A DNA stretch of 53,703 nt from a virus. The stretch is from UHGV virus genome UHGV-0137934; one strand, written 5' to 3'. The translations under genes and the position numbers were made by a program. Below are positions 653-39,109 of the stretch, piece after piece. Numbering within the stretch: the first letter of the stretch is position 1; every line of letters starts with the position of its first letter. The notes beneath the pieces are model-generated. The model was not told the origin of the DNA and made no database searches. It saw nothing but the letters and a program-made list of their open reading frames with translations.

Positions 653-1918
653 TCATCTGACCTGAAGCAAATCACTGTATCTAGTGGTATAGCGTGGAGA
701 AAGCATTTCTCGCTGCATTTGCCATGCGGTCTGGATTCCCTGCCCTGCAAAATAGAGCGTCCCCCTGCCATCCTTCGCGTTGAGGTGGTCTAAAACTTCC
801 ATCAGTTTCTCACTGTTCTGCCGCGGTGCGTTGTCATCGAAGAGGTTAAGCTGCGCTACGCCCTGGCTGTAGAAATCACCCAACATTACTCCTGCTTTCT
901 GGTAGCGATGCCCGTCTCGCCATATCATGTCGAGGCATTTCGTCGCTGCGGTGATTATGTCCCTACTGTCCTGTGTTGGAGTCAACAGCTTTACTGATGC
1001 GCTGTTTCCGTAATATGGCTCGTTAAGAGCAAAGGGGCTGGTTTTAACGAACGCTGAGATAAAGCGGCAATACTGGTGCTCACCACGAAGTTTCTCCGCT
1101 GCGCGCGAGGCATAGCTGCATATTGCCTGCCTCATCTCATGATATTCCGTGATACGCCCACCGAAAGAGCGACTGCAGACTATTTCCTGTTTTACGGGCG
1201 CGAACTCCTCCAGACCGAGACAAGGCTCGCCACGCAGTTCCCGCACGGTTCGCTCCAGAACCACATTGAAATGCTTCCGGATAAAACGGATATCCGTATC
1301 TGCAAGTTTTAACACTGTGTCTATCCCCATAGACTCCAGTTTTTTACTGATACGGCGCCCAACGCCCCATACTTCATCAACCGGCAACAGCGCCATTAAC
1401 TTCCTCTGCCGTTCCATATTCGACAAATCAACTACGCCTCCAGTCTGCCGCTGCCACTGTTTCGCTGCGTGATTGGCCAGCTTCGCCAGAGTTTTTGTCT
1501 GGGCTATGCCAACACCAACCGTGAGGTGCGTCCGGCGCAGAACCGTCTCGCGAATTTCCCGGCCAAAGTCGGTAAGGTCGCGACAGTTACGAACTCCTGT
1601 CAGATCGCAAAATGCCTCATCGATACTGTAAATTTCGCATCGTGGAGAGAGCTCTTCAAGCGTAGTCATGACCCGGTTCGACATATCCGCATAGAGCTCA
1701 TAGTTGCTACTAAACGCGATAATGCCGTGCCGGCGGAACATTTCCTTTTGTTTAAAGTACGGCTCCCCCATTTTGACGAACGGCTTTGCCTCTGCGCTAC
1801 GTGCAATCACACAGCCATCGTTATTGGAAAGGACGACCACTGCACGCCCTTTCAAGTCAGGGCGAAATACGGTCTCGCACGATGCGTAAAATGAATTCAC
1901 ATCACACAGGGCGAACAT
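653..1918 (-). CDS. umuC: DNA polymerase V catalytic subunit UmuC (Y-family translesion polymerase)
   Basis: 421 aa ORF; matches remembered E. coli UmuC along full length (MFALCDVN.FYASCETVFRPDL ... SIDEAFCDLTGV ... RYTTR..DLL.V); start 3 nt after umuD stop. Confidence 0.95.
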   Translation of the reverse strand: MFALCDVNSFYASCETVFRPDLKGRAVVVLSNNDGCVIARSAEAKPFVKMGEPYFKQKEMFRRHGIIAFSSNYELYADMSNRVMTTLEELSPRCEIYSIDEAFCDLTGVRNCRDLTDFGREIRETVLRRTHLTVGVGIAQTKTLAKLANHAAKQWQRQTGGVVDLSNMERQRKLMALLPVDEVWGVGRRISKKLESMGIDTVLKLADTDIRFIRKHFNVVLERTVRELRGEPCLGLEEFAPVKQEIVCSRSFGGRITEYHEMRQAICSYASRAAEKLRGEHQYCRFISAFVKTSPFALNEPYYGNSASVKLLTPTQDSRDIITAATKCLDMIWRDGHRYQKAGVMLGDFYSQGVAQLNLFDDNAPRQNSEKLMEVLDHLNAKDGRGTLYFAGQGIQTAWQMQREMLSPRYTTRYSDLLQVR

Positions 1919-1919
1919 C

Positions 1920-2339
1920 TCAGCCAGCCGCTTTGATGATAAATGTCACAACACCGAATACATCCAGCGTGTCCTCGCTTCCCACGACGATTGGTGAATA
2001 TGCGGGATTCATTGGGTTAAGCTGAACGCGTGGATGTAGTTGCAACTTCTTAACGGTGAATTCCCCGTCCACAGCGGCAATCACGATATCACCATGAACT
2101 GCGGTTCTTGAGCTATCCACGACCAGAAGATCCCCCTCTCCGATCCCGGCGTCCTTCATGCTGTCGCCCGCAGCTTTGACAAAATATGTCGCGCTGGGGT
2201 GGTTAACTAGCAACTCGTTCAGGTCGATGCGTTGCTCAACATAATCCTGCGCAGGACTCGGGAAACCACACTGAACAAGGTCGCTGTACAACGGAATCAG
2301 GATGATTTTGCGTAACTCAACGGGCGTGTAGAACTGCAT
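1920..2339 (-). CDS. umuD: UmuD, LexA-like S24 self-cleaving accessory subunit of Pol V
   Basis: Matches remembered UmuD ([26 protein letters not shown] ... GDSM ... [19 protein letters not shown]); ORF track extends to a GTG at 2354 but ATG at 2339 fits UmuD length. Confidence 0.9.
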
Positions 2340-2359
2340 GATAGACTCGCTCACATAAA

Positions 2360-2827: not shown

Positions 2828-3379
2828 TCATCCCGTTACTGGCAGATATTTATAGATAGTCTTCACCCCTACACCTATCACATCGGCTATCTGCTGGCGT
2901 GTAGCTCCGTTCTCCAGCATCCGGCGGCCTCGTTCCACAACTTCTTCGGTCATAACCCGGCGGCGGCCACCGATGCGCCCCTGCTCCCTTGCCGCTGCTA
3001 AACCGGCGCGGGTACGCTCGACGATCAACTCTCTTTCCATTTCCGCCAGTGCACTCATGACGTGGAAGAAAAAACGTCCTGCTGGCGTACTGGTATCGAT
3101 GCTGTCAGTCAGGCTTCGGAAATTCACCCCGCGCGCCTGCAGCTCTGATACCAGAGTGATCAGGTCACGCACGCTTCGCCCCAGCCGATCCAGTTTCCAG
3201 ACCACCAGCACATCACCCGGTCGCAGCCGCCGCAGCGCACGCTTTAGCCCTGGTCTCCGGGCATTCTTTCCGCTGGCCGTATCTTCGAAAACCAGCTCAC
3301 ATTCTGCGCGGATCAGCGCATTTTTCTGTAAATCGAGGTTTTGATCCCCGGTTGACACCCTGGCATAACCAATCAGCAT
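2828..3379 (-). CDS. serine recombinase, Hin/Gin/Pin/Cin-family DNA invertase
   Basis: 183 aa; N-terminal MLIGYARVSTGDQNLDLQ catalytic-serine motif, C-terminal HTH; adjacent to tail-fibre genes as in Mu Gin and P1 Cin. Confidence 0.9.
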   Translation of the reverse strand: MLIGYARVSTGDQNLDLQKNALIRAECELVFEDTASGKNARRPGLKRALRRLRPGDVLVVWKLDRLGRSVRDLITLVSELQARGVNFRSLTDSIDTSTPAGRFFFHVMSALAEMERELIVERTRAGLAAAREQGRIGGRRRVMTEEVVERGRRMLENGATRQQIADVIGVGVKTIYKYLPVTG

Positions 3380-3422
3380 GATGTAACCCTTTGAAATAGC
3401 TGATTGTAAAAAGCTCCGGTCT

Positions 3423-3473
3423 TTCGCTCAAACCCTCGTTTGCGCGAAGCCTCTTTTTGGAGCAAAAAACATG
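3423..3473. repeat. left inverted repeat of invertible segment; contains 26-bp hix/gix-like crossover site (3423-3448, core CT 3435-3436)
   Basis: TTCGCTCAAACC-CT-CGTTTGCGCGAA imperfect palindrome; 49/51 nt identical to reverse complement of 9980-10030; includes RBS and ATG of gene at 3471. Confidence 0.75.
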
Positions 3474-5426
3474 GCTGCAGATCTGAATCCGCCGCTGGGT
3501 ACGACGACGCCTGAAATCTTTTTAGATAACGTTAAGCGGGCCGATCGGTTAGTGAACGGGCCGGAGGAAACGGTAAACGATCGCGGCGGGGAACCGCTGG
3601 ATACCTGGCGTCAGATGATGGCGAAAAATGATGATGTCAGGCAGAACATCATTCCGCTGAGTCGCCAGTACATGACGCTTGATACGGCCCAGGCCGATAT
3701 CGTCAATATCCCGGAGGGCAGCACAACCTATGTGCGCAGTTCTGATGATGCTTATCTGGCTATTGAGTACAAAAACACTGGAGGCGTGCTGCAACCTACA
3801 GGAAGAACCATGATTTCAGGAAAGACTGCCGTAAGACGTACAGATGAATACTCTGACGGAGTTAATTATGCCTGGGGAAAGGTTATGTCCAGCGGGGAAA
3901 TACTTCCGGGTACTCTTCAGGGAATGGACGGATTGCCAGCGCCTGAAAACGTCGCAGCATACGCTGCCAAAGGTGTGGCGGTCTATCAGCTTAATCCCGC
4001 AGATATTCCGGCAGGACATGCGATTATCAAAGACGGCATTGTTTTGCTGGAAGCTGACCAGTCAGGGCGCCTTAATTACCTGCCACCGCTCAATCGTCGC
4101 GCGCGGCAGTCGGTGAATCAACGCCCTGAAATGGTCCTCACGCCGCTACCCGCATCAGTACGCGCGGCAGTCGAACCACTCGCCGAGCGTGCCTGTAAAT
4201 ACATGCTTTCAACGTGGGTGCCGACATGGGTTCCCCTGGCTGGCGGAACCGGGCTTCCAGCCACTGGCTCGACGATGGACAGCATAGAGCAATACCCGCT
4301 GATGCTGGCCGCAGTAGTTCACTGGATAAGCTGGTGTGATGCCGGTTACGCGGCCTGGGATGAAACGTTTATTGGCGTCAGTTATGACACTGCCGTTTCC
4401 TGGATTGTTCAGGGGCTGGATTTAGTGGTAAGTGCGCATCTGGCAAACGGTGGTTGGTGGGGAGGCCCGCCGCCGCCGTGGAGCGAAGCCTCTGAAGAAG
4501 TGGCGGTAACTTTCGGCTCACAGGCGGCAGAGCTGGCGCGTAATGTGGCCAGCCACTGCGACCTGATGGGCGCACACCTGACGGCAGCCCAGAAAACAAA
4601 AGTCACCGCAATGGTGGTGCATGAGGCTAACCGCTTTGTGAAGTACACGCCCAAATACCGCTGGACGCGCCCGGATATCCGGGGGCAGGTGACGGATAAC
4701 TACCCGACAGGCGATTCCAAATCAGAAGAAATCGCCTGGAACCTGGCTATCCTCGCCCGTGCACTGATTTTAGCCCCGGATAATGCCAATGCTGAGCGCT
4801 GGGCCGAGCGGCTGATTACGATGCAGATTGCGGCGCTGGGTGACAGAAACGACCTGTCCGAGACGATGACGATTAACGGGCTGGCTCCCTGCGATGTGAT
4901 GAACGGGACAAACGTTAACCCGACCCGCCTCGTTGAAAACCACGGGGTTGCTGATGGGCAGGATGTGTCCCGCTGGTACACGATGGCGTCATTGTCAGGT
5001 AGCGAGTGGATGTTTCGCACCTTCCTGCTGGCCGGGAAGCCAGTGCCATCGGCAGCCCTCTGGCATATGGCCGACACCATGCGGGCGCTGGCCTACAACC
5101 CGGATGGTTCGGTGTGGAGCATGGACTGGAGGGAGCCTGTCGGCGAACTGTCCTATGCACCGGCGATTGCCTACATGTTTGCCGAGCCGCGTCAGGACTA
5201 TATCGATACGCTGTTGCACCGCCTGGCGATTTTTGCCGGGCAGCAGGACGACACTACCGGGGCGCTGCCCGCCGGGGCGTTTAACTGGCCAGTCTATGGT
5301 TCTTCCCAGCCCGGCGAATTCCTGAGTTACATCCGTATGTCTGACCGCATGCAAAACCCGCTGACCTGTCCGCGTGCCACCAATACACATTACACCAGCC
5401 TTGCCGCTATTTACCGGAGCGTTTAA
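3471..5426 (+). CDS. receptor-binding tail fibre/tailspike protein, cassette A (currently in non-expressed orientation)
   Basis: 651 aa; N-terminal about 50 aa homologous to N-terminus of ORF 6320..9982; divergent C-terminal domain; lies inside invertible segment. Confidence 0.7.
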   Translation: MAADLNPPLGTTTPEIFLDNVKRADRLVNGPEETVNDRGGEPLDTWRQMMAKNDDVRQNIIPLSRQYMTLDTAQADIVNIPEGSTTYVRSSDDAYLAIEYKNTGGVLQPTGRTMISGKTAVRRTDEYSDGVNYAWGKVMSSGEILPGTLQGMDGLPAPENVAAYAAKGVAVYQLNPADIPAGHAIIKDGIVLLEADQSGRLNYLPPLNRRARQSVNQRPEMVLTPLPASVRAAVEPLAERACKYMLSTWVPTWVPLAGGTGLPATGSTMDSIEQYPLMLAAVVHWISWCDAGYAAWDETFIGVSYDTAVSWIVQGLDLVVSAHLANGGWWGGPPPPWSEASEEVAVTFGSQAAELARNVASHCDLMGAHLTAAQKTKVTAMVVHEANRFVKYTPKYRWTRPDIRGQVTDNYPTGDSKSEEIAWNLAILARALILAPDNANAERWAERLITMQIAALGDRNDLSETMTINGLAPCDVMNGTNVNPTRLVENHGVADGQDVSRWYTMASLSGSEWMFRTFLLAGKPVPSAALWHMADTMRALAYNPDGSVWSMDWREPVGELSYAPAIAYMFAEPRQDYIDTLLHRLAIFAGQQDDTTGALPAGAFNWPVYGSSQPGEFLSYIRMSDRMQNPLTCPRATNTHYTSLAAIYRSV

Positions 5427-5428
5427 TC

Positions 5429-6196
5429 ATGACCCTTGAAGTTGTTCCTGGAAGCCTGACCAGTCCCGACCCTTCCATTAAAAACTATGCCCCCTACGCT
5501 CCCGCTATTGGCGTGACCGGTTATACCGACCGCTGGCGTCCGGCGCTGGATTTTTCAGCCAGCATTACGGGAGACGCCGTTATCGCTTATCCGAGTCCCC
5601 TGGTGCCGGATAATGTTTTGTCGGGAAGCACAACGAATCCGCCAGTCATTGTCGATCAGTCTGGTGTTCGCATGGTCGACTGTGCCACAACAGGAGCGCT
5701 GGCAGCGCTGACAGACATTAACCGTAAGTTCGGTGACGTCAGTTTGCTGGCGGTATGGTATGAAGTACACGGCTCCGCATCCCACTCCATTCTGACCATC
5801 GGAGGATTGCGGTTCAGCCGGGCAAGCGCCAGCTGGGGTCTGTCCAAAATGTCCGGCGCTGCAGGGACAACACTGAGCATTTCCAACGATCCGGCTGCCG
5901 GAGGTGTGGCTATTTCCGCACGTCGCTATGCCGCTATTCTGACTATCCCTGCTGACAGCGCAGCCGCCGTAACGTTGCGCCTGATTGGTGCGGGCTCATC
6001 CGCTGTTAGTGTTTCTGGCATTATCACCCGCGGTGGTTCTGCAGATGAACAACGTCGGTTGCGGTTTGGTAAAGATTCGGGAGGCTCATCTAATACCGGA
6101 CCGCAGTTTGCCGAAATGGTTATCTGGGAGCGTCTTTTGACAGCGCAGGAAATCACAACCGTTTCTACCTATACAGCCAACATTTATACCCTATAG
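5429..6196 (+). CDS. hypothetical protein co-transcribed with cassette A fibre (possible fibre chaperone or second fibre subunit)
   Basis: 255 aa ORF starting 3 nt after fibre A stop; Ala/Gly/Ser-rich; no recognised motif. Confidence 0.45.
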   Translation: MTLEVVPGSLTSPDPSIKNYAPYAPAIGVTGYTDRWRPALDFSASITGDAVIAYPSPLVPDNVLSGSTTNPPVIVDQSGVRMVDCATTGALAALTDINRKFGDVSLLAVWYEVHGSASHSILTIGGLRFSRASASWGLSKMSGAAGTTLSISNDPAAGGVAISARRYAAILTIPADSAAAVTLRLIGAGSSAVSVSGIITRGGSADEQRRLRFGKDSGGSSNTGPQFAEMVIWERLLTAQEITTVSTYTANIYTL

Positions 6197-6319: not shown

Positions 6320-9300
6320 TTAAGAATTGGTGACGTTCTCTAAATCCAGCTCATTTTCCTTAACAATGTTGTCTCTGGTGATGGTGCTGGCCATGTAGTC
6401 AGCGCTCGCCGCGGACATGCCTTTTGCATTGCCTTTAATGATGCTGTCTTTGAGGATAGCATCTGTTAACTGGGCACTGATCCCGATCCCGTTCTGACCA
6501 TTATTCAGAAGCATGGCGCCCCGAATAATGACGTTTTCCGCCGCATTGCCAAGCTGGATACCGCTCCCGCCATTTCTGGAGAAAGAGCCACCATTAACGG
6601 AGACCTCCCGAATCGGAGTTGTGACATTTGTTGCCGCAACAACCCGCAGCCCGTGGCTCTCGTTGTCTTCTGAAATGCAGTTATCGAGGTAATATCCGCG
6701 CGCATTATCACCGATTTCAGCGTTAACATAGTCTGCCGTTTTATACACTGCAAACCCGTTGCCGTTTCCGAAGCCCATCTGACGAGGCGTGAAATAGGGA
6801 TTCTGAATCTTGCTGGTCCCGTTTTCAATCGCCTTGCAGTCAGAGAATACGGCATTTATGCCATACCGGACCTCGCCAACCTGGCTACCATTATCGGCGG
6901 CGAATCCGTTCAGGTTGCGGTATGCCGTGCAGTTAGCATAGGAAAGGCCATTACAGCCAGCGTTACCGAAGCCAACCGCATTGCCTTCGCTATAGCAGTT
7001 CGTAACGTTAACACCCACCGGGAAATCGCCGATGATTGTTTCTCCGCTACTCTCCATGTGGTTGTGCCACTCGAAGAACATGCCGTGACCATAGTTATTC
7101 CGGTTAATGCAGTTCATCACCTGAATCGGCTCCCGTCCTGCGCGAAACGCGCCTACCCCGATCCCCATCCCGGCACAGGACCCATCCTGTTTATTCTGCC
7201 CGCAACCCTCTGTCACGATATGATCCAGCACGCCGGACATAATCATGTCCACTCCGAAGCCGGTTATCGCTGATTTATAAATCCAGATATTTCGGGCTAC
7301 GAAATCCTTAACGTACTCCATATTAATCCCACGACCCGCGCGAGAGCTGAGAATGTCCAGATTAAAGCCCAGGTTTTCGAAAGTGATTTTTTCGTAAACG
7401 TGATCGCTTAACTTCTCATTTTTAAACGGAACGTCGGCGCCGCAAATAATCGTGTTGTACATCCCGTCGCCGTAGATGTGGTTGAAGCTCTTGATGTAAC
7501 AGCCGGAGATTTTATACAGCCCACTTTCCATATAAACCTTGCCGCGTTTCTGGCGCTCCATTTTCAGGCAGAGCTTTTGAAGCAACGGGGTGTAATCATA
7601 AGCGAGGGTTTTATCGGGTCGGCCTGCCAGGTCATATAATTTATAAACCGGCTCCGAGAGTTCCAGAAAGGCTCTTTCACCTCCCCGACCATTTACCAGC
7701 ACGTTGAATGCAGTGGAGTCCCTGCGCCCGTCAGACACATGCGAAATCCCGACGTAAGCCACATCGTCTGATGTGAACAGGTCAAGCAAAGTGGACGTGT
7801 TAATGCCCGTGGTCAGCGTCTCAACGGAGAGAACACCACGGTTACTGTCCAGTCTGGCCATATACATGTAGGTGTTACCTGCGGCATATGACAGCGTGAC
7901 TTCTGCATCTTTGGGGACTGCGGCGCGGTCAAAAAGGTACGTAACCGCCGTAGGAACAGAAACTAACGAACCCGCAGCATCATAGGCCAGTCCGGGGTAG
8001 ATATCGCCGTACGGATTCGACGCCGGGCCTTTAATAAAAAAGGAATCATCTTCTGTGGTACTGAAGATAACGACCTCAGGATCATAAAGTCCGGTTGCTG
8101 AATAGTTGTTAACGGCGATAAACCCGTCTTCTTCAATCAGCGCACAGGCGTATCCGTAGTAATTGTTATTAACATAGGTAAACTGCAGCGTGCTTCCAAG
8201 ATATTTGCCGATTTTGTTATATCTGGCGCCCATAAACAGTGTAGCGCCTGCATTCGTCGAGTTTTGCACTGTCCTGGCTTTCACATAATCGCCAGCCTTC
8301 ACAGGGATAAGCGCCGTGCTCATGTAGTTTACATTCGAATCCACGCGGCCTGAATTACCGTTCGACCGCACAACTCCCACTTCCCACGAATCGGCAGGGT
8401 AAGTGTACTGTTTGACCCTGGAGCCAACAGCATACTTACGCTTACGAATAAAGGCAGGAAGACTGCCGTCGGTCATATATGCGGTGACATATATCGTGCA
8501 GGCCTCAGTGGCGGTATACAGATGCTCGGTGTAGACAGAGCCCGCTTTGAAAGCAAAACTGATCGGCTCAAATACCCCCTCAGAAATATATTTAGAAAGT
8601 ACAGGCAAGCCATATTTAGCGGTTAAGGCATTTGAGTTTAAATTTACCCTGGCAAAAACAGATTCCCCGGCCTCCAGTTCAACGACATACAGCTTCTGGT
8701 ACAGGCTGGAAACCAGCGCGCCCGCCATGGAAATGTACTGATTGGGAATGATTGTCGCCGTTGCTCTGGCGTTAATGTCGGCGTAATAAACATCCGTGAC
8801 TTTATTTTCAACCAGATTCTGTGTGCTGGGGACGGCAACATCAAGAGCAGAATCCACTTCACGGCGTTTAATTAGCCCTGCTGAAATAGAGTAGCTGGAG
8901 TCCCGCGCTGCCGTGGATAAAATCGCAGTGCTTAAAGACAGTACGATGTACCCGTCGGTTGGCACGGAATAGCTATACTCTTTGATGCTTTCAGCGCCGT
9001 TGCCGATCACGCCCTCGACAAAAGACGCAGCCGAATGGCTGGAGAAAAACGCAATGGCATAGCCTGAAGACGGCAGGGCCAGACGGGCTGAAATAATACT
9101 CCCCACCGTAACCTTAATGAATCCCGTATTAAAACTGGTTGCAGATACCGTAGGGTAAGAGGTTGGCGCGCTTACGCTCACGAATCCATTATTCGGGAAT
9201 GCCTCTGCACCGCTGGCGGTCACGGCCTCACCGACAAGGGTATTTATCGCGGTTTCAAACGTCTCGAATGAAGTATAGCCACCGGCTTTATCGCTGTTAT

Positions 9301-9982
9301 CCACCGTCAGCACGTCTTTGATCACCTCACAGGCGAATGTCTGTGACGTTGCGATGCGTGTTGCCAGAATAATAAAACCATCCGCGGGGACAGCAAAAGT
9401 CCGGGTGTAAGCCTCAGGCCCGACCCCGACATTCTCGGCAGAAATAAACGTTTTGTCCTGATCGTAAAACGCAACGTTTGCGTAACTGGCGCTGTTATTC
9501 GCCGCCGTCAGTTTAAGCTGCTGGCCCTTAGTAACCGCAATATACGTTGAGTTCCTCCAGTTAGCCGAAGATACCCGCGAACCATCAGCTTTAACGATGT
9601 AGTTTGAACCGGTCAGGTCACTGAGAACGGCCAGCGGGGTAGAGCCTATAAGGCCATTGATGTAATCGACGATTTGCGCGTTCTGATACCCGGCTTTGGC
9701 CCATGCCGTCCCGTTCCAGAGGTACAGCGTCCCGGTTGCCGTGTCCATCGCCAGTGTGTTGGGTTCTGACGGCGTAAAGGCCAGTAATTCCGCCGCTGAT
9801 GCAAACCCCATCGCACCGCCCGCCGCTTTTAGTCTCGCTATCGCCTGACGCCAGGAATCCAGCGGCTCACCTTCGCGGTCGGGAACATCAGCAGCGGGGC
9901 CATTCACCAGCTTATCCAGGCGCTCGGCGTTATCGAGCAGTACCGCAGGAGAAGTGCTCCCCAGAGGAGGATTAAAGGCCAT
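6320..9982 (-). CDS. tailspike/tail fibre with right-handed beta-helix (depolymerase-like) C-terminal region, cassette B (currently in expressed orientation)
   Basis: 1220 aa; N-terminus MAFNPPLGSTSPAVLLDNAERLDKLVNGP homologous to cassette A; C-terminal Gly/Asn-rich repeats typical of parallel beta-helix polysaccharide-degrading tailspikes. Confidence 0.75.
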   Translation of the reverse strand: MAFNPPLGSTSPAVLLDNAERLDKLVNGPAADVPDREGEPLDSWRQAIARLKAAGGAMGFASAAELLAFTPSEPNTLAMDTATGTLYLWNGTAWAKAGYQNAQIVDYINGLIGSTPLAVLSDLTGSNYIVKADGSRVSSANWRNSTYIAVTKGQQLKLTAANNSASYANVAFYDQDKTFISAENVGVGPEAYTRTFAVPADGFIILATRIATSQTFACEVIKDVLTVDNSDKAGGYTSFETFETAINTLVGEAVTASGAEAFPNNGFVSVSAPTSYPTVSATSFNTGFIKVTVGSIISARLALPSSGYAIAFFSSHSAASFVEGVIGNGAESIKEYSYSVPTDGYIVLSLSTAILSTAARDSSYSISAGLIKRREVDSALDVAVPSTQNLVENKVTDVYYADINARATATIIPNQYISMAGALVSSLYQKLYVVELEAGESVFARVNLNSNALTAKYGLPVLSKYISEGVFEPISFAFKAGSVYTEHLYTATEACTIYVTAYMTDGSLPAFIRKRKYAVGSRVKQYTYPADSWEVGVVRSNGNSGRVDSNVNYMSTALIPVKAGDYVKARTVQNSTNAGATLFMGARYNKIGKYLGSTLQFTYVNNNYYGYACALIEEDGFIAVNNYSATGLYDPEVVIFSTTEDDSFFIKGPASNPYGDIYPGLAYDAAGSLVSVPTAVTYLFDRAAVPKDAEVTLSYAAGNTYMYMARLDSNRGVLSVETLTTGINTSTLLDLFTSDDVAYVGISHVSDGRRDSTAFNVLVNGRGGERAFLELSEPVYKLYDLAGRPDKTLAYDYTPLLQKLCLKMERQKRGKVYMESGLYKISGCYIKSFNHIYGDGMYNTIICGADVPFKNEKLSDHVYEKITFENLGFNLDILSSRAGRGINMEYVKDFVARNIWIYKSAITGFGVDMIMSGVLDHIVTEGCGQNKQDGSCAGMGIGVGAFRAGREPIQVMNCINRNNYGHGMFFEWHNHMESSGETIIGDFPVGVNVTNCYSEGNAVGFGNAGCNGLSYANCTAYRNLNGFAADNGSQVGEVRYGINAVFSDCKAIENGTSKIQNPYFTPRQMGFGNGNGFAVYKTADYVNAEIGDNARGYYLDNCISEDNESHGLRVVAATNVTTPIREVSVNGGSFSRNGGSGIQLGNAAENVIIRGAMLLNNGQNGIGISAQLTDAILKDSIIKGNAKGMSAASADYMASTITRDNIVKENELDLENVTNS

Positions 9983-10030
9983 GTTTTTTGCTCCAAAAAG
10001 AGGCTTCGCCCAAACGAGGGTTTGTGCGAA
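9980..10030. repeat. right inverted repeat of invertible segment; 26-bp hix/gix-like site at 10005-10030 (core AG 10017-10018)
   Basis: Reverse complement matches 3423-3473 at 49/51 positions; lies between stop of 10060..13116 and ATG of 6320..9982. Confidence 0.75.
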
Positions 10031-10059
10031 AAGAGTTAATAAGGGGTTTTTATGGGGTA

Positions 10060-14047: not shown

Positions 14048-14513
14048 GCTTCGGCCACTCCTTGTTCAGCGCAATATCAAGCAGCGAACTACCCGTAATC
14101 CATTCTGGATAATACCCCCACCCAGCAGGAGGCATAGGACGCTCCCATAACTCAATGGGCGCAACATAGCGCCAGAACAAACCACCTTCTGGCGTCGGCC
14201 CCCTATAGATATCTGTAAATCTGCAGACGTAATTCTTATGTCCGACAGGCGTCAGCAAAGGCATATTAAACCAGGCGCTGCCATCAGAAAGCACATCCCG
14301 GTACCACGCCTCAAAAGCTTGCGCCTGGGCATCATCAAAGAGCCATGCAATATCTGTTTCTGTAGGTACGGATGTATAAGCACGCCTTTGACGTCGCCTG
14401 CCAGTAATAATTGGCGTGCTTTTTAGCGGCGAAACTGGCTTAAGACCAAAACTATCTTTAAGAGGTCCTGGCAAATAGTCCGAGGGGTAATTAATCGGTG
14501 TTGTAATAGCCAT
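14034..14513 (-). CDS. distal tail protein (hypothetical)
   Basis: 159 aa ORF directly downstream of tape measure gene. Confidence 0.45.
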   Translation of the reverse strand: MAITTPINYPSDYLPGPLKDSFGLKPVSPLKSTPIITGRRRQRRAYTSVPTETDIAWLFDDAQAQAFEAWYRDVLSDGSAWFNMPLLTPVGHKNYVCRFTDIYRGPTPEGGLFWRYVAPIELWERPMPPAGWGYYPEWITGSSLLDIALNKEWPKHDGD

Positions 14514-17071
14514 CAGCCAATTTTCCTCCCCGAGTTTGTTTTCCCCATTAATACCTTGTGCAAATCACCCTGCCCGCTGGCTATGGAGTTAACAGCTTTC
14601 CGATATCCGCGCTCAGCCCCCTCATCAGCCGCCTTACGTACCAGCGACAATGTGGCATCTGAAGGATTGCCATTGATAGGAATGGTGATATTTGGGGCAT
14701 AGATAGCGCCACCGCCGGTTGACTGGTTCGCTACCCGATCCAACGTAGCATCCAACTTTGCACTGGTTTTAGCTGTGGTAACTCGTTCACCTTCCTGTAG
14801 GAGCCAGGTTCCTGTTTTTGGTACTGAGTCAATGCCATCATGCGCCATACCTGATATTGAAGCGACGGATATAGCAGCAACCATTGGTTGCGTTACAGCA
14901 GCGGCAGCAGCCATGGCTGCTGGAGCCATTGCAGGCCCAACTATTGGTATTGCGGCGGTTGAAGCAAAAGCGGCAAGTTGACCCTGTAATGCAGTAGCCT
15001 GTGCATTAGCAATCATTGCAGGAATAGCAGAGGCCTGTACTGATTTGTTAACCAGCATTTGGACACCCTGGTACACAATCCATTGAGCAGCCATATCGAC
15101 AAGAGCTTGAATCACAGATTCACCAAGATCTGCAAAAATACCTTTTATAGCTTCTCCCATCGACTCGGTACCATCGATAACATTATATAAATGCTCAGAG
15201 ATGGAATCAGTAGCTGAACCCAGTATCGATGTCATCGCATTAGCTGCTTGCTGGTAGTAATCACTAGAAATGTCAGCAAAGTCAGCTAATGAACTTGAGA
15301 TGCCAGATTGCCAATCACTTTGTAAATCATCTGACTCCTGATAATAACTTTCCTGTATTTGCAAGCGTTCTTTAAGTGCATCCTTTAACGCCTCTTTCTT
15401 TTTATCATATAAACTATTATCAATATCACCAGACTGAAGTTGATTTAAAAGTTCCTCTTGTCTCGATTCGAAATCCTGCTGAATGCCATTTAACTCTCGC
15501 ATTCTGCCACGGTCCTTACTTCCCAAAGAAAGACCCATAATTTCGTTATCATATCCCTGTCGGACAAGCTTGTTTTGCCTTGTTAAACCGGAAATATATT
15601 CTGCAACCTTTGCATTCTCTTGGTTAAGTCGCAGTTCTTCTTTTTTAGAGTCAAGTGTTTTTGCAGCAATACGAAGCTGTTCTTTTTGATCCTCAGATAA
15701 TTTTTTCAGGTTCCCACTGGCAATATCAAAATTTATTTTTTCAAGCTCTGTAACTTCAGCTGTTTTTTTACCAGTAGTTTCAATAAGTGCAGCTTGTTTC
15801 TGTAAGTCTAGTAATCTACTTTTGAATGCGTTATCAGTTGGGTTTTTCTTAGCAGTTTGCTTCTGGTTCGATTCATCTTTACCAAGATTATAATTATCAG
15901 TGGTGTTCGGCTCTATGTCCATGTCAGAAAGCAAGGACTGCATCCCCTTCGCGGCCCTTTGTGATTCTTCTGGGGTGAGTATCGATCCTTTGATTGCTTG
16001 CAAAAAATCACGGCGCTTGTTTAAAAAATCTAACTCTTCTTTTTGTTCCTTACTCTGGTTACCTCTCTTGTTCAGGAATTCAATACGCTGTTCTACGTCG
16101 TTTAGATCGGAAGCATCGTAATTCCCTGATACGGCACCAACGCGAGAGCGTGTATAGGATGCGATAGCTCCCAAACCACCAGCTATTCGGCCAACCACTC
16201 CTGCAAGACTGATTGCCTCACCTACAAGGTCCGAAATACCCTGAAGAACAGCAGGATCAGTAAATACGTCTCGAATATCATCCAGCCCATCCTGCAAAGG
16301 TGACAGATCAATTTTTGCTAGACCTGATGCAATTTCCATCCTCATGCCGCGCGCGCTGGTCTCGATATCCTGAAAGAACTGATTAACTTTAACCAGATTA
16401 TCAATATCTTCCTGGGGAGGTGCGACACCAAAATCTTTTGACAACTGGATAAATTGCTTCAATTTCTCGTTATTGTTATCGAACAACGGCAACATTTTTG
16501 ACAGGTCATTACCCAGACTTTCGAGGATATTGGTTTTCCCGGCCTGAGAGGGGATTTTCTGTAATGCTCCACTGATAGCCATCAGTTGCTTGTCAGGGGA
16601 TTGCTGGGCCAACTTCTGAGCTGAAAGCCCGAGAGTATCCAGTGCCTGAGCAGCCTCACCTGATTTGTTCAGAACCGCATCGCCGACTTTATCGTTAATA
16701 TCTTTAAAAATATCTGCAATATTATCGCCAGTTAAACCGGCTTGTTCAGCTGCGTATTGCCAGGATAATAAATCTTGAGTGGACATTTTTAATGATTTTG
16801 CCCACCTGTCAGCCTCAGTTACCTGCTGAGCGGTGTTTTTTACAATCGCCAGACCAGCAATGCCAATTCCAACGGCAGCAGTAGCTGCTGCTACGCCAAT
16901 AGCAGCCAGGGATGCCCCAACCTCTTTAGCGTCTTTTTTTACCTGATCGCGCCATTTTTGGGACGACCTTTCAGCCTTATCCATCCCCTGAACAAATCCG
17001 CCTACTTTTGCTATCAGGTCAATTGTTAATGTACCAAGGGATTTTCCAGCCATTAAGTTTTCTCCAGGCAT
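14513..17071 (-). CDS. tail tape measure protein
   Basis: 852 aa; long coiled-coil/low-complexity protein with N-terminal hydrophobic Ala/Gly segments; canonical position. Confidence 0.85.
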   Translation of the reverse strand: MPGENLMAGKSLGTLTIDLIAKVGGFVQGMDKAERSSQKWRDQVKKDAKEVGASLAAIGVAAATAAVGIGIAGLAIVKNTAQQVTEADRWAKSLKMSTQDLLSWQYAAEQAGLTGDNIADIFKDINDKVGDAVLNKSGEAAQALDTLGLSAQKLAQQSPDKQLMAISGALQKIPSQAGKTNILESLGNDLSKMLPLFDNNNEKLKQFIQLSKDFGVAPPQEDIDNLVKVNQFFQDIETSARGMRMEIASGLAKIDLSPLQDGLDDIRDVFTDPAVLQGISDLVGEAISLAGVVGRIAGGLGAIASYTRSRVGAVSGNYDASDLNDVEQRIEFLNKRGNQSKEQKEELDFLNKRRDFLQAIKGSILTPEESQRAAKGMQSLLSDMDIEPNTTDNYNLGKDESNQKQTAKKNPTDNAFKSRLLDLQKQAALIETTGKKTAEVTELEKINFDIASGNLKKLSEDQKEQLRIAAKTLDSKKEELRLNQENAKVAEYISGLTRQNKLVRQGYDNEIMGLSLGSKDRGRMRELNGIQQDFESRQEELLNQLQSGDIDNSLYDKKKEALKDALKERLQIQESYYQESDDLQSDWQSGISSSLADFADISSDYYQQAANAMTSILGSATDSISEHLYNVIDGTESMGEAIKGIFADLGESVIQALVDMAAQWIVYQGVQMLVNKSVQASAIPAMIANAQATALQGQLAAFASTAAIPIVGPAMAPAAMAAAAAVTQPMVAAISVASISGMAHDGIDSVPKTGTWLLQEGERVTTAKTSAKLDATLDRVANQSTGGGAIYAPNITIPINGNPSDATLSLVRKAADEGAERGYRKAVNSIASGQGDLHKVLMGKTNSGRKIG

Positions 17072-17115
17072 AAAAAAACCCCGCCGAGGCGAGGTTCATA
17101 ATTTAATTTAAGCGA

Positions 17116-17493
17116 CTATTTTTTAAGTGCCTCGGCATAAGCTTGGGCGGTTTTTTGTGATGATTCCATGACATCATCAGCCAATGTTTGTTGGCCCCAC
17201 TTAGCCACTTTCCCGCTTACAAACGTAACAACTAGTCGATCATTAGCTAATTGTTCGTTATCGATAATAGTGTAGCCGTATAGAGACTTATTCCAATAAA
17301 TCCAGCGTTCGCGCTCTGGGTTAACATCAGTCCTTCTAGGCGATCCCATAATCTGCATAACATCGTTTTTGCTCATCCCAAGAGATAGAAGCATAGATTT
17401 CTGGTTGTAGTCGATTTTCTGGACTGTTGGGGCGCAGCCAGTAATTGTTAAAGCGGATGCGCCAAGTACTAAAGCGAAAATTAACTTTTTCAT
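17116..17493 (-). CDS. lipoprotein, BamE/SmpA-OmlA-like domain (moron inside tail operon)
   Basis: 125 aa; signal peptide with lipobox LTITGC; segment SLGMSKNDVMQIMGSP resembles BamE fold signature. Confidence 0.7.
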   Translation of the reverse strand: MKKLIFALVLGASALTITGCAPTVQKIDYNQKSMLLSLGMSKNDVMQIMGSPRRTDVNPERERWIYWNKSLYGYTIIDNEQLANDRLVVTFVSGKVAKWGQQTLADDVMESSQKTAQAYAEALKK

Positions 17494-17556
17494 ATCCCTA
17501 TCCCAGTAGTTATTAGTTTACTGATGATAGTGATCCTGCACTGCATTTAACAGTTA

Positions 17557-17820
17557 TCAGTGCCAATTTTTCATGGCATCTTGAAGCGACAAAGGGGATT
17601 CATTGATATGGGGCGCAAAGTCACTGACCTTATAAGTAGGCGTGTTCTTCGCCTTATTGATGTTCGCCAGAACAGAAGCGACCATCGAGGCCCCCCACTC
17701 GGTTCGCATCATGTTGTTAAGCTGACCATACTTATTGCGGTACTTTACCCATATCTGAAACTCACGGAGGCTCATTCGCTCCTGAGCCTCCTCGATCGTT
17801 CTCCCGCCAATGCCGTTCAT
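17557..17820 (-). CDS. tail assembly protein (gpT-like region, own ATG)
   Basis: 87 aa ORF immediately after chaperone gene, different frame. Confidence 0.4.
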   Translation of the reverse strand: MNGIGGRTIEEAQERMSLREFQIWVKYRNKYGQLNNMMRTEWGASMVASVLANINKAKNTPTYKVSDFAPHINESPLSLQDAMKNWH

Positions 17821-17822
17821 GA

Positions 17823-18206
17823 CTAACTCACACCAGAACTCGTCTTCTCCTGTGAGTTCGTAGTCTTTCCCAGCTCGTTGACTCCCTGAATTACGGTCAG
17901 CAAGGCAATAACAATCGGGCCATCAAGTGCACCACGGTCTTCAGATGCAGTTCCGAGAATGTCCGCCTCGGTGAAGATTTGCTTGCCTTCCTCATCACAG
18001 ATATGGGCGGCAATACGCCCAGCCACCGGATCTGATTTGCCGTTATACGCCAGCAGTTCAGCTTTAGTGGTGTGGTAGCCCATAGGACGTACAAAGACGG
18101 TTGCAATATGTTCTTGCCCGTCACGACCTTTCCATTTGATTTCTTTCTCTACCGGGCGGCCAGTGAATGCCCCGGTTTCTTTTAACGTATCGAGAGTAAG
18201 CTGCAT
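17823..18206 (-). CDS. tail assembly chaperone (gpG-like)
   Basis: 127 aa acidic protein between tube and tape measure genes. Confidence 0.5.
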   Translation of the reverse strand: MQLTLDTLKETGAFTGRPVEKEIKWKGRDGQEHIATVFVRPMGYHTTKAELLAYNGKSDPVAGRIAAHICDEEGKQIFTEADILGTASEDRGALDGPIVIALLTVIQGVNELGKTTNSQEKTSSGVS

Positions 18207-33791: not shown

Positions 33792-34841
33792 CTAACTCAG
33801 CAAACTGCGCATTTCACTGACCGTCTGTTCAAACCGCTCGGTTTCCAGTTCAACGCCGATTCCACTCCGCCCAAGCAGAGCCGCTTGCTTTAGTGTGGAA
33901 CCCGAACCAGCAAAGAAATCAGCTACGACATCCCCTGGCCGACTGCTTGCAGTAATGATCTGCTGGAGCATATCGGCAGGTTTTTCGCATGGGTGCTTAC
34001 CTGGATAAAACTGAACCGGCTTATGTGTCCAGACGTCGGTATATGGCACCGTGACCGACACGCTAAATGGGCGCCGTAACCGGTAAAGCTCCTGCTGAAG
34101 TTCAGAATACTTCCGGTTAAGTGATTGCCAGGTAGCGACAAGCTGGTGGTGAGGTTTTCCCAGTTCGTTGCGTGAGTGCTTATCCATGGCGATTTTTTGA
34201 AACAGAGCCTGCAACTTCAAATAATCGGCTTCATTCGGCAGTTGCCACTGGCTAAGGCCAAACCAGTGGGAAACCATATTTTTTTTACCCGTGGCTTCTG
34301 CAATCTGGGCCGACGTCACGCCAAGAGATTCCCGGGCATCCCGGAAGTAAGAAATTAAAGGCGTCATGATGTGTTGCTTTAACTCATTACACTTTGCGGC
34401 ATATCCATCGTCTTTGGGCCTGTATGGCCCCTGATAATGGTCGGCAAAAATGATACGCTCAGTGGCCGGGAAATAAGCGCGTAAGCTCTCCTTATTGCAG
34501 CCGTTCCATCGCCCTGATGGCTTAGCCCAGATGATATGGTTGAGCAGGTTAAACCGCTCTCTCACCAACAGCTCAATATCCGCTGCCAGGCGGTGCCCAC
34601 AGAACAGATACATGCTGCCGGCAGGTTTTAACACTCGCCAGAACTGTGCCAGACAGCTATCCAGCCAACGTAAATAGTCCTCGTCCCCCTGCCATTGGTT
34701 ATCCCAGCCGTTTGGCTTCACCTTAAAATAAGGCGGATCGGTAACAATAAGATCAATGGAGTTATCGGGTAGTGATGGGAGGTATTGCAGGCAATCAGCA
34801 TTGATTAATTCAACACTGGATATTTTTACAGTATTTTTCAT
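33792..34841 (-). CDS. DNA methyltransferase, N6-adenine/N4-cytosine type (DPPY motif)
   Basis: 349 aa; IVTDPPYF motif; C-terminal SAM-binding FFAGSGST. Confidence 0.8.
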   Translation of the reverse strand: MKNTVKISSVELINADCLQYLPSLPDNSIDLIVTDPPYFKVKPNGWDNQWQGDEDYLRWLDSCLAQFWRVLKPAGSMYLFCGHRLAADIELLVRERFNLLNHIIWAKPSGRWNGCNKESLRAYFPATERIIFADHYQGPYRPKDDGYAAKCNELKQHIMTPLISYFRDARESLGVTSAQIAEATGKKNMVSHWFGLSQWQLPNEADYLKLQALFQKIAMDKHSRNELGKPHHQLVATWQSLNRKYSELQQELYRLRRPFSVSVTVPYTDVWTHKPVQFYPGKHPCEKPADMLQQIITASSRPGDVVADFFAGSGSTLKQAALLGRSGIGVELETERFEQTVSEMRSLLS

Positions 34842-35392: not shown

Positions 35393-36223
35393 TTATGCGA
35401 TATTTATGAAATCAGACACCTTTGTCACACGTTTAAGTTGTGAGTCGGTATAACTCTCTTCCTCAAAGCATTTTGTAACCAGACTTTCATAGAAAGGTTT
35501 CCAGCTGTATCGCCAGGTACGTTCTGGCAGACCAGGCAGCTCAGAGAGTATACCTCTGTAAGCATTTGAAGACTTAGGACGACTATAACCGCGACCTTCA
35601 CAACGTTTACATACTTTGTAGACAGGCACTCCCTGCAGCTCTGACTCTTTACGGTCCAGGGTTTTTCCCGTACCGCCACACTGGCATCGCTTGCTGATTT
35701 TCCCGGTGCCGCCGCATTTAAAGCAGAGAACATGGTCAATCTCTTCCACCTGACGTTTTACTTCAAAATCCGAAGGTGACTGCCCGAGGTCTTTTGCCCA
35801 TTGCGGTAATCTCATTTTGTAGTGGCTTTTTTCCACCATTGAGGTTTTTTTTATGAAGCCTGAACCAGAACACTTCCTGCAATCTACGCTGTCAGCTGCA
35901 GACGAGGCATAGTCGTTATAAGCGAACCGAGCTATTATCAGCATACACAGCGGGAACTTCTTCCCTGCTGCTTTTCTTATCGATCGAGGCGCTTTTGATT
36001 TTGCATATTCAGCCAACCAACTGACGGATGCCTTTCTGTCGTGTTCGCTGATTCCAGCTTTACCCAAAAACATTGACAGGCCTATTCCCGCCTCTGCCTG
36101 TGTCATCCCCAGTGCGGCCATTACATCTGTCACAGTGAGTTGCTCGCTGGCGGTTGCACGACCGCTATCGGAAATATGCATTCCTTTGGGCGCGAAAAAT
36201 TTGGGAATTGATTCAATATTCAT
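35393..36223 (-). CDS. Q-like late antiterminator (zinc-finger type)
   Basis: About 276 aa; CxxC...CxxC motifs; position upstream of late promoter/terminator. Confidence 0.5.
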   Translation of the reverse strand: MNIESIPKFFAPKGMHISDSGRATASEQLTVTDVMAALGMTQAEAGIGLSMFLGKAGISEHDRKASVSWLAEYAKSKAPRSIRKAAGKKFPLCMLIIARFAYNDYASSAADSVDCRKCSGSGFIKKTSMVEKSHYKMRLPQWAKDLGQSPSDFEVKRQVEEIDHVLCFKCGGTGKISKRCQCGGTGKTLDRKESELQGVPVYKVCKRCEGRGYSRPKSSNAYRGILSELPGLPERTWRYSWKPFYESLVTKCFEEESYTDSQLKRVTKVSDFINIA

Positions 36224-36241
36224 GCTCAGTACTCCATACAC

Positions 36242-38636: not shown

Positions 38637-39109
38637 TCTGCCTCCAGCACTATCTTCAACTCAAACGGAACATCTCCTCCGCAATAGCAGAGCGGGCCAA
38701 GGTCAGACATAAGGCTCCACAGGGTCATTGACGTATAGCCATTTTCGTCTGTTACCGGGGGCGAAAAGTCCCCGAAGATCCCCGGGTGCTGGATTCGATT
38801 CTGCTCGTGTTGTTTTTCCAAATGTCTGAGGGAGACTTCATTGAGTTTCACTTTTACGATGCTGTTGAGATTGACCGATATTTCTCTGGCCAGCAGCGCA
38901 GGGGTGATACTGATACCGCGAGAAACCCCGCGGCTGATTGTGATAACACCCTTTTTCTCTAACGCCTTGAGGTGCGTTGCTGCTGCATTGGGGGACCGGC
39001 ACCCCAGCATGCCGGTCAGTTCGTAAGTTGTAGGCGGAAAACCATGTTTACGCTGATATTCGATCAGGAGGTCAAGGACCTCCTGCTGCCTTAAGGTCAA
39101 GGAAGTCAT
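38633..39109 (-). CDS. LexA-type winged-HTH DNA-binding domain protein lacking S24 peptidase domain
   Basis: About 158 aa; N-terminus LTLRQQEVLDLL ... GFPPTTYEL ... NAAATHLKALEKKGVI matches LexA DNA-binding domain; C-terminus unrelated to LexA. Confidence 0.6.
   Translation of the reverse strand: MTSLTLRQQEVLDLLIEYQRKHGFPPTTYELTGMLGCRSPNAAATHLKALEKKGVITISRGVSRGISITPALLAREISVNLNSIVKVKLNEVSLRHLEKQHEQNRIQHPGIFGDFSPPVTDENGYTSMTLWSLMSDLGPLCYCGGDVPFELKIVLEAE

What the first reader, a model, noticed from the sequence alone, without database searches (positions are those of the whole stretch)
17116..17493. Lipoprotein gene inserted between tail assembly chaperones and tape measure gene
Chaperone genes normally abut the tape measure gene. 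Here a 125 aa lipoprotein (lipobox LTITGC, BamE-like segment) is interposed with its own spacing. Phage lipoproteins in this context (Cor and Llp in phi80/N15/T5) block receptors for superinfection exclusion, so this is a candidate.
Basis: inference. Interest (0 to 1): 0.4.

Follow-up and report, generated by a model that had tools for sequence, protein, structure and literature searches.

The report
Lipoprotein moron before tape measure gene
A temperate phage carries an add-on gene cassette (a "moron") for an outer-membrane lipoprotein in the classic slot just before its tail tape measure gene; the arrangement is a known kind, but this conserved protein family has no tested function.

Summary
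ORF 17116-17493 (- strand) encodes a 125-aa protein with a lipobox (ITG-C20) and a weak but above-threshold BamE Pfam domain. It sits between tail chaperone gene T and the tape measure gene, followed by its own intrinsic terminator.

It is not unusual in kind. This is the slot of HK97 gene 15, the first gene ever called a moron. Sister phages carry three unrelated exported proteins there.

The same lipoprotein family occurs in at least 14 tape-measure types. It also occurs after the tape measure gene, between the lysis and terminase genes, in a Mu-like phage, and on a few chromosomes. It is therefore mobile cargo, not a tail part.

The family is narrow and under strong purifying selection (dN/dS 0.02-0.05). 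Its predicted fold is BamE/OsmE/BLIP-like. It is not related to Cor, Llp or Rtp45.

The cassette ends are shared with other morons. The 3' terminator-plus-ribosome-site joint also follows cor in phi80. The 5' promoter-like leader is shared by about 33 mostly exported cargoes.

Superinfection exclusion is plausible but untested. An envelope-fitness role is nearly as likely.

The parts
17116..17493 (-). Moron cargo: 125-aa prolipoprotein, about 105 aa when mature. BamE/OsmE-like domain plus a C-terminal helix.
   Evidence: (phrog_18614, E = 3e-66)
17434..17493 (-). Signal peptide (aa 1-19) and lipobox Cys20 (codon 17434-17436). Residue +2 is Ala, which by the E. coli sorting rule predicts outer-membrane targeting.
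   Evidence: Read directly from the sequence. Cys is invariant in 64 homologues.
17200..17388 (-). BamE-like domain, aa 36-98
17494..17556 (-). 63-nt 5' spacer, a degenerate copy of a shared moron leader. The Shine-Dalgarno block GGGATAGGGAT lies at 17494-17504. A -10-like TATCAT lies at 17524-17529, 30 nt before the ATG.
   Evidence: No sigma-70 promoter passes the scan thresholds.
17069..17097 (-). Intrinsic terminator: 9-bp stem GAACCUCGC...GCGGGGUUU followed by a U run.
   Evidence: Conserved in sister phages with other cargo. 91-95% identical to the terminator after cor in phi80 and in HK and mEp phages.
17051..17065 (-). Ribosome-binding site GGAGAAA (17059-17065) and the conserved tape measure start ATG (17051-17053). 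This is the second half of the portable terminator-RBS joint.
17557..18206 (-). Tail assembly chaperone genes G (17823-18206) and T (17557-17820); the upstream border of the slot.
   Evidence: (Phage_TAC_13, Phage_tail_T)
14513..17053 (-). Tape measure protein gene; the downstream border of the slot.
35393..36241 (-). Q-like antiterminator. It would let late transcription read through the moron terminator.
   Evidence: phrog_127, E = 8e-96

Best explanation
The feature is a moron cassette in the late tail operon of a lambdoid temperate phage. The cassette runs: leader with a strong ribosome-binding site, one cargo gene, an intrinsic terminator, then a fresh ribosome-binding site for the tape measure gene.

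Shown by tool results:
- The cargo has a signal peptide and lipobox, and a compact BamE/OsmE/BLIP-type domain followed by a C-terminal helix.
- It is mobile among phages and among insertion slots, so it is not a tail part.
- It is under strong purifying selection.

Inferred, not shown:
- Outer-membrane anchoring on the periplasmic side, from the lipobox rule.
- The protein is made in the lysogen from a weak promoter in the 63-nt spacer, and in any case during late, Q-antiterminated transcription.
- It binds a conserved envelope component at the periplasmic face of the outer membrane and so changes what can enter.
- The most likely pay-off is exclusion of incoming phage at the receptor or DNA-entry step. 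That is the logic of Cor, Llp and Rtp45 (outer-membrane lipoproteins acting on receptors) and of HK97 gp15 (same slot, blocks DNA entry).

My confidence in the moron-plus-lipoprotein part is about 0.85. My confidence in the exclusion function is about 0.35-0.4.
For: Gene and protein:
- ORF, lipobox and BamE domain.
- AF2 model with pLDDT 83.
- dN/dS 0.02-0.05.

Slot and architecture:
- Terminator directly after the gene, and a Q-like antiterminator in the same phage.
- Same slot and same architecture as HK97 gene 15, which is a proven exclusion protein.
- Sister phages with 83-86% identical flanks carry other exported proteins in the slot. 733R5 and EC7 carry a secreted protein; KpF5 and E. 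coli prophages carry a different lipoprotein.

Mobility of the cargo among 93 loci:
- 35 directly before a tape measure gene.
- 18 before a tape measure gene with one small ORF between.
- 2, plus Flyfo phage, directly after a tape measure gene.
- 32 between the lysis and terminase genes.
- The rest include 1 Mu-like phage and 3 chromosomal loci.

Shared cassette ends:
- The 3' joint is shared with cor and occurs in at least 120 viral contigs.
- The 5' leader with an extended -10 is shared by about 33 cargo clusters, 76% of them exported.

Mechanistic precedent:
- Llp and Rtp45 bind the periplasmic face of their receptors (PMC12685063).
Against: - No promoter in the window passes a sigma-70 scan. 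My own weight-matrix scan gave p = 0.4 against shuffles.
- The window's 5' leader is a degenerate copy of the shared module, so expression in the lysogen is unproven.
- No similarity to Cor, Llp, Rtp45 or any PADLOC defence model.
- The family is 55-60% identical between Enterobacterales, Stutzerimonas and Alcaligenes. Known receptor-blocking lipoproteins are not that conserved.
- Chromosomal copies at a fixed locus in Alcaligenes suggest a housekeeping-type envelope role.
- Cargo type does not track the tail-tip protein. J is about 72% identical in sisters with other cargo and 65% in Flyfo phage, which has the same cargo.
Confidence: 0.4

Rival explanations
1. Lysogenic-conversion envelope factor. 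The lipoprotein strengthens or remodels the host envelope (osmotic, serum, bile or detergent tolerance). It would act like lambda Bor or host OsmE, and have no direct effect on phages.
For: - The weak NCBIfam hits are to OsmE and YgdI/YgdR.
- Chromosomal members beside LysE in two Alcaligenes species and near uvrC in a Pseudomonas MAG.
- In 32 loci the gene sits in the position of lambda bor, between Rz/Rz1 and the terminase genes.
- Very high conservation across host orders.
Against: - The OsmE and BamE equivalog models are far below cutoff (16 bits against 65).
- The family is overwhelmingly phage-borne.
- It shares a slot with a proven exclusion gene.
Confidence: 0.3
2. Periplasmic inhibitor or immunity protein. 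The BLIP-like domain binds and neutralises an incoming enzyme or toxin. Candidates are a bacteriocin, a T6SS effector, or a muralytic tail enzyme of another phage.
Against: - Sequence identity to these is only 12-14%.
- No toxin or effector gene is adjacent in any of the contexts examined.
- No PADLOC hit.
Confidence: 0.1
3. BamE mimic. The lipoprotein docks on the BAM complex (BamA/BamD) in place of, or beside, host BamE. It would alter outer-membrane protein assembly, or block entry routes that depend on BamA.
For: - Pfam BamE domain above the gathering score.
- The conserved target that this reading implies fits the cross-order conservation.
Against: - Profile-to-PDB E-values against BamE are only 0.6-0.9.
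- No NCBIfam BamE hit.
- The extra beta-hairpin and C-terminal helix are absent from BamE.
- The BamE fold is shared by many proteins unrelated to BAM.
Confidence: 0.1
4. Tail-related function. The protein works with the tape measure protein, as a virion component, an assembly factor or an injection helper. That would explain why it so often lies beside the tape measure gene.
For: 55 of 93 loci place the gene next to a tape measure gene, across 14 tape-measure clusters.
Against: - 32 loci place it at the lysis/terminase junction; other copies lie in a Mu-like phage or on chromosomes.
- Sister phages with the same tail genes lack it and carry other cargo.
- A lipid-anchored exported protein cannot join cytoplasmic tail assembly.
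- The terminator-RBS joint, shared by many cargoes, explains the adjacency through recombination.
Confidence: 0.05

Closest known systems
HK97 gene 15 moron (gp15, YebO-like superinfection exclusion protein)
   Same: - Identical genomic slot: chaperone T stop, about 60-nt spacer, small envelope-protein gene, intrinsic terminator, ribosome site, tape measure ATG.
- Both appear to derive from a bacterial envelope protein family that has chromosomal members.
   Different: - gp15 is a 62-aa inner-membrane protein, not a lipoprotein.
- There is no sequence relation between the two.
- gp15's exclusion activity is experimentally shown; nothing has been shown for this protein.
Cor (phi80, N15, HK022, mEp phages)
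   Same: - A small outer-membrane lipoprotein moron in a tail region.
- The terminator-plus-ribosome-site joint after the gene is 91-95% identical over about 40 nt.
   Different: - Cor is about 77 aa and lies before the side tail fibre gene.
- No sequence or fold similarity.
- Cor targets FhuA; the partner here is unknown.
T5 Llp and Rtp Rtp45 (exclusion lipoproteins that bind the periplasmic face of FhuA or LptD)
   Same: The predicted location (inner leaflet of the outer membrane, facing the periplasm) and a protein-binding mode of action would fit the same mechanism (PMC12685063).
   Different: - Those proteins are about 6 kDa, are encoded next to the receptor-binding protein gene, and occur in lytic phages.
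- This one is about 11.5 kDa, has a BamE-like fold, and occurs in temperate phages.
- No homology.
BamE / OsmE / OmlA (SmpA_OmlA, Pfam PF04355) and the BLIP fold
   Same: - Lipoprotein with the two-helix, three-strand core.
- Pfam hit just above the gathering score.
   Different: - Not an orthologue: the NCBIfam OsmE model scores far below cutoff and no BamE model hits, and PDB profile E-values are 0.1-0.9.
- It has an extra hairpin and a C-terminal helix.
- It is phage-borne.
Lambda Bor (and Iss)
   Same: - Prophage outer-membrane lipoprotein moron.
- In 32 related loci this family occupies the bor position, between Rz/Rz1 and the terminase genes.
   Different: No Lambda_Bor Pfam hit. Serum resistance has not been tested.
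Ltp of Streptococcus phage TP-J34
   Same: A prophage lipoprotein, regarded as a moron, that blocks DNA injection. Its identified target is the tape measure protein (Bebeacua 2013, cited in PMC3952083).
   Different: Gram-positive host, a different fold, and it is encoded in the lysogeny module. A tape-measure target here is only a possibility.

Membership tests
Moron (Juhala/Hendrix sense) | An extra gene between two genes that are adjacent, or differently filled, in related phages | tested here: met
   Sister phages with 83-86% identical flanks carry three other cargoes in the same slot. An empty slot in this lineage was not looked for.
Moron (Juhala/Hendrix sense) | Own transcription terminator | tested here: met
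   9-bp GC-rich stem plus a U run at 17069-17097. It travels with the gene in other contexts.
Moron (Juhala/Hendrix sense) | Own promoter | tested here: inconclusive
   - No hit at the tool's thresholds. My weight-matrix scan gave p = 0.4.
- TATCAT at 17524-17529 lies where related cassettes have an extended -10, TGnTAGGAT.
Moron (Juhala/Hendrix sense) | Base composition different from the neighbours | tested here: inconclusive
   GC is 42.1% against 49.6% and 50.8% for T and G, and 50.2% for the late region. The tape measure gene is also low, at 44.3%.
Moron (Juhala/Hendrix sense) | Expressed from the repressed prophage | not testable with these tools
   Needs RNA-seq, 5' RACE or a reporter fusion.
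Bacterial lipoprotein | Signal peptide with a lipobox [LVI][ASTVI][GAS]C | tested here: met
   MKK-LIFALVLGASAL-T-ITG-C20. The Cys is invariant in 64 homologues. Lipidation itself was not testable.
BamE (BAM complex subunit) | Pfam PF04355 domain | tested here: met
   25.2 bits against a cutoff of 23.2, E = 1.5e-5
BamE (BAM complex subunit) | Orthologue-level similarity to BamE | tested here: not met
BamE (BAM complex subunit) | Binds BamA and BamD | not testable with these tools
   No multimer modelling or experiment was available.
OsmE | NCBIfam equivalog NF008423 | tested here: not met
Cor / Llp / Rtp45 exclusion lipoproteins | Sequence or fold homology | tested here: not met
Cor / Llp / Rtp45 exclusion lipoproteins | Encoded next to the receptor-binding or fibre gene | tested here: not met
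   The gene lies before the tape measure gene. cor in phi80 lies before fibre gene 25.
Cor / Llp / Rtp45 exclusion lipoproteins | Blocks adsorption or entry of the cognate phage | not testable with these tools
   Needs plating and adsorption assays.
Known anti-phage defence systems (PADLOC) | Match to any PADLOC model | tested here: not met
   0 families at E <= 1

The most novel reading that the evidence does not exclude
Two linked readings are not excluded.

1. The protein is a phage-borne mimic of BamE/OsmE. It would dock on a conserved outer-membrane machine (BAM, Lpt or similar) shared by gamma- and beta-proteobacteria, giving a broad-spectrum block to entry or a rewiring of outer-membrane biogenesis.

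2. It is one cargo of a previously undescribed cassette system. In that system a portable promoter-leader-ribosome-site head (TGnTAGGAT ... GGGGATAGGGAT-ATG) and a portable terminator-ribosome-site tail (GCGGGGTTTTTTATTGCCYGGAGAAAA-ATG) would shuttle mostly exported proteins between fixed slots of temperate siphophages.
Probability: 0.12. Interest if true: 0.7.

Novelty: new member of a known kind. Interest (0 to 1): 0.4.

Why it matters
On its own this is an ordinary moron in the textbook position. It still gives a clean experimental handle on an uncharacterised protein family: phrog_18614, which genome pipelines routinely mislabel as 'BamE'. The family is conserved, phage-borne, and spread from Klebsiella to Alcaligenes.

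If it excludes phages, it would be a new fold class of exclusion lipoprotein with an unusually conserved target. That matters for Klebsiella phage therapy, because prophage cargo of this kind shapes which therapeutic phages can infect.

The shared cassette ends seen on the way suggest how exported-protein morons are exchanged. They could also be used to mine such cargo systematically.

Tried and rejected
- **PADLOC defence models:** no hit.
- **NCBIfam:** nothing near cutoff.
- **Rfam on 16900-17900:** only sub-threshold chance hits.
- **Sigma-70 scan and my own weight-matrix scan of the spacer:** no significant promoter.
- **Foldseek against viral structures:** nothing informative.
- **Exact sequence look-up:** not in the protein collection.
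- **Literature:** no paper on a BamE-like or SmpA/OmlA phage moron, and none containing the leader motif.
- **Functional link to the tape measure protein:** considered because 55 of 93 loci are adjacent to a tape measure gene. Rejected as the main reading because of the 32 lysis/terminase loci, the Mu-like and chromosomal copies, and the shared terminator-RBS joint.
- **Cargo tracking the tail-tip protein J, as cor tracks FhuA-binding tips:** J is about 72% identical over its full length in sisters with other cargo, and 65% in Flyfo phage with the same cargo. There is no sign of co-variation. The side fibres were not compared.
- **Upstream ATG at 17071 as the tape measure start:** rejected. 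It lies in the terminator's U run and is not conserved.

Full report
**The observation.**
The ORF at 17116-17493 on the - strand exists and encodes 125 aa, MKKLIFALVLGASALTITGCAPTVQK.... The N-terminus has a basic start, a hydrophobic core and a lipobox, I-T-G-C20, followed by Ala. In 64 aligned homologues the Cys is invariant and the +2 Ala is present in at least 90%.

Pfam gives BamE (PF04355) for aa 36-98, at 25.2 bits against a gathering score of 23.2. PHROGs gives phrog_18614, 'unknown function', at E = 3e-66 over the full length.

Upstream lie a Phage_TAC_13 chaperone gene (17823-18206) and a Phage_tail_T gene (17557-17820). Downstream lies a tape measure gene (phrog_2854, E = 3e-291).

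There is a 63-nt spacer before the gene. After it comes an intrinsic terminator, GAACCUCGCCUCGGCGGGGUUU followed by a U run, at 17069-17097.

Alignment with four relatives shows that the real tape measure start is the ATG at 17053, preceded by GGAGAAA. The ATG at 17071 lies inside the U run and is not conserved.

**The genome around it.**
The window is a lambdoid temperate phage or prophage. It has:
- an integrase, a CI-like repressor, a CII-like activator and an O-like replication protein;
- a Q-like antiterminator at 35393-36241;
- a holin and an endolysin;
- a tail with a J-like tip protein.

The whole late operon is on the - strand. A Q-type antiterminator explains how late transcription can pass a terminator placed immediately before an essential tail gene. 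This is the classical moron argument; here it is an inference.

**The slot.**

I read the HK97 record. Its layout is T stop, 57 nt, gene 15, terminator ACCCGCTATCAAGCGGGTTTTTTTT, ATGGGTGAAAATATG, then the tape measure gene. That is the same architecture as here.

**The slot is variable in sister phages.**
Relatives match the window at 83-86% DNA identity from T upstream, and again from the terminator into the tape measure gene, but not across the cargo. Three other cargoes fill the slot:
- vB_EcoS-733R5 and E. coli EC7 carry a 125-aa secreted protein.
- Klebsiella phage KpF5 carries a 123-aa lipoprotein of a different family.
- E. coli prophages such as 5CRE51 carry a 130-aa relative of the KpF5 lipoprotein.

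The terminator and the tape measure ribosome site are kept in all of them. One E. coli prophage shares the window's 63-nt leader up to the ATG although its ORF is different.

**The cargo is mobile.**
The family has 113 clusters at 90% identity, almost all named 'BamE' by automatic annotation. Among 1.84 billion 50%-identity representatives, only 7 score E <= 1e-30 and 28 score E <= 1e-10. It is therefore a narrow, tight family.

I fetched 93 loci and classified them:
- 35 have the gene directly (22-76 nt) before a tape measure gene.
- 18 have it before a tape measure gene with one small ORF between. In several of these the small ORF is a second, translationally coupled lipoprotein gene.
- 2 have it directly after the tape measure gene, as does Flyfo siphovirus Tbat2_3.
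- 32 closely related loci have it between holin/endolysin/Rz-Rz1 and terS/terL, the position of lambda bor.
- 1 is in a Mu-like phage.
- 3 are chromosomal without phage genes nearby: two Alcaligenes species beside a LysE gene, and a Pseudomonas MAG near uvrC.
- 2 are too short to classify.

The loci next to a tape measure gene span 14 tape-measure clusters at 50% identity. The gene is therefore accessory cargo, not part of any one tail module.

dN/dS against four homologues is 0.02-0.05, so it is a working gene under strong constraint.

**The protein.**
AlphaFold2 on the 64-sequence alignment gives mean pLDDT 83, and 90-96 over the core. The model has two short helices, a beta-sheet with an extra hairpin, and a lower-confidence C-terminal helix.

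All of these are small periplasmic or outer-membrane-associated protein-binding domains.

At sequence level the link is weak. Profile E-values against PDB BamE chains are 0.6-0.9. The OsmE equivalog scores 16 bits against a cutoff of 65, and no BamE model hits. The protein has a BamE-type fold but is not BamE or OsmE. It is unrelated to Cor, Llp or Rtp45 and matches no PADLOC model.

**Cassette ends.**
*The 3' joint.* The 40 nt after the gene (hairpin, U run, ATGCCTGGAGAAA) are 91-95% identical to the annotated terminator after cor in phi80 and in many HK and mEp phages. In phi80 the sequence is AAACCTCGCTCCGGCGGGGTTTTTTTATTGCCTGGAGAAAATATG, leading into fibre gene 25.

The pattern GGGGTTTTTTNNTKCCYGGAGAAAA occurs once in the window, with none expected by chance. 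Of those 120, 50 precede a fibre gene (most of them after cor), 46 precede a tape measure homologue, and 24 precede something else.

*The 5' head.* The block GGGGATAGGGAT-ATG is used by this family in several contexts and also by many unrelated ORFs. Upstream of it, at a fixed distance, most copies have a -35-like TTGTCG or TTGC.., a C-rich spacer and an extended -10, TGnTA(C/G/A)(G/T/C)(A/C)T. This often follows the terminator of the previous unit.

Among 33 cargo clusters that carry this head, 25 (76%) have a signal peptide, lipobox or N-terminal membrane helix by a simple hydrophobicity rule.

*Caveats.* A 15-mer is expected by chance in a collection of this size, and some matches clearly are chance. 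Related contigs are not independent. The signal-peptide call is heuristic.

*The window's copy.* It is degenerate. The ribosome-binding block is kept, and TGCTAGGAT is reduced to TGCAGGAT. A TATCAT (5 of 6 matches to TATAAT) sits exactly 30 nt before the ATG, where the others have their -10. No promoter passes the standard scan.

**Most likely mechanism.**
*Shown:* an exported-lipoprotein gene with cassette architecture, mobile among slots and phages, strongly conserved, with a BamE-like fold.

*Inferred:*
- Outer-membrane anchoring facing the periplasm. This follows from the Lol sorting rule (no Asp at +2), which is established knowledge for Enterobacterales.
- Expression during late transcription, and probably weakly in the lysogen.
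- Action by binding a conserved envelope partner.

The nearest mechanistic precedents are:
- HK97 gp15, in the same slot, which blocks DNA entry;
- Ltp, a lipoprotein whose target is the tape measure protein (cited in PMC3952083).

I therefore rank exclusion of incoming phage first, at about 0.35-0.4. An OsmE/Bor-like envelope-fitness role is close behind at about 0.3. The cross-order conservation and the chromosomal copies argue for a conserved host target, and the cargo does not track the tail-tip protein J. Inhibitor/immunity and BAM-mimic readings remain possible. A tail-structural role is unlikely.

**Verdict.**
The interpretation as a candidate exclusion lipoprotein is reasonable but unproven, and the analogy to Cor and Llp holds for logic and for the shared 3' joint, not for homology or position.

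In kind it is a new member of a known class: a moron in the HK97 gene 15 slot. The protein family is uncharacterised and systematically mis-named 'BamE'. The shared cassette ends deserve a study of their own.

Noticed in passing
window 3422-3475 and 9978-10031, with 2828-3379, 3471-6196 and 6320-9982: A 54-nt inverted repeat (96% complementary) brackets a 6.5-kb segment holding two opposed fibre-like genes. Their first ~50 aa are 60% identical, and their ATG and GGAG lie inside the repeat. A Hin/Gin-type invertase gene sits just outside. This looks like an invertible host-range switch that swaps whole fibre genes behind the late operon.
   Followed up: partly
window 17051-17097; L101 (phi80) 950-1000; L102-L221: A portable terminator-plus-ribosome-site joint (GC hairpin, U run, ATTGCCYGGAGAAAA, ATG) follows cor and many unrelated small genes. 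It precedes either a side-fibre gene or a tape measure gene in at least 120 viral contigs.
   Followed up: partly
L224-L326, L008, L013, L014, L017, L030, L291; window 17494-17556: A conserved 5' module is shared by about 33 unrelated cargo clusters, 76% of them exported proteins. It consists of a -35-like TTGTCG, an extended -10 TGnTAGGAT, a ~20-nt leader and GGGGATAGGGAT-ATG. No paper containing the motif was found.
   Followed up: partly
window 17053 versus 17071: The longest-ORF start of the tape measure gene (17071) lies in the terminator's U run. The start conserved in relatives is 17053, giving MAGKSLGTL.
   Followed up: yes
L008 6384-7004; L011 and L014 6384-6707: In Salmonella, Citrobacter and Enterobacter prophages the lipoprotein gene overlaps (ATGA) a second lipoprotein gene before the tape measure gene. 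That second gene belongs to phrog_29243 or phrog_19981, both of unknown function. The slot can therefore hold stacked lipoprotein cargo.
   Followed up: partly
L025 5989-6348; L026 6037-6315; L019 5407-5784: Chromosomal, non-prophage members of the family occur beside a LysE transporter gene in two Alcaligenes species and near uvrC in a Pseudomonas MAG. They may be the bacterial source of the phage gene.
   Followed up: partly
window 653-2354: A umuD/umuC-like pair (Peptidase_S24 and impB/mucB/samB family) lies at one end of the prophage region, next to the invertase.
   Followed up: no
window 33792-34841, 39106-41193, 41186-42139: Three DNA methyltransferase-like genes lie in the early/late regulatory region of the phage.
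   Followed up: no
L001 (ON470608.1) and other GenBank phage records: The deposited annotations are misleading. The slot cargo of vB_EcoS-733R5 is labelled 'obscurin', and the J-like tail-tip gene of many Klebsiella phages is labelled 'kinase | nitrite transporter'. Members of this lipoprotein family are named 'outer membrane protein assembly factor BamE'.
   Followed up: no
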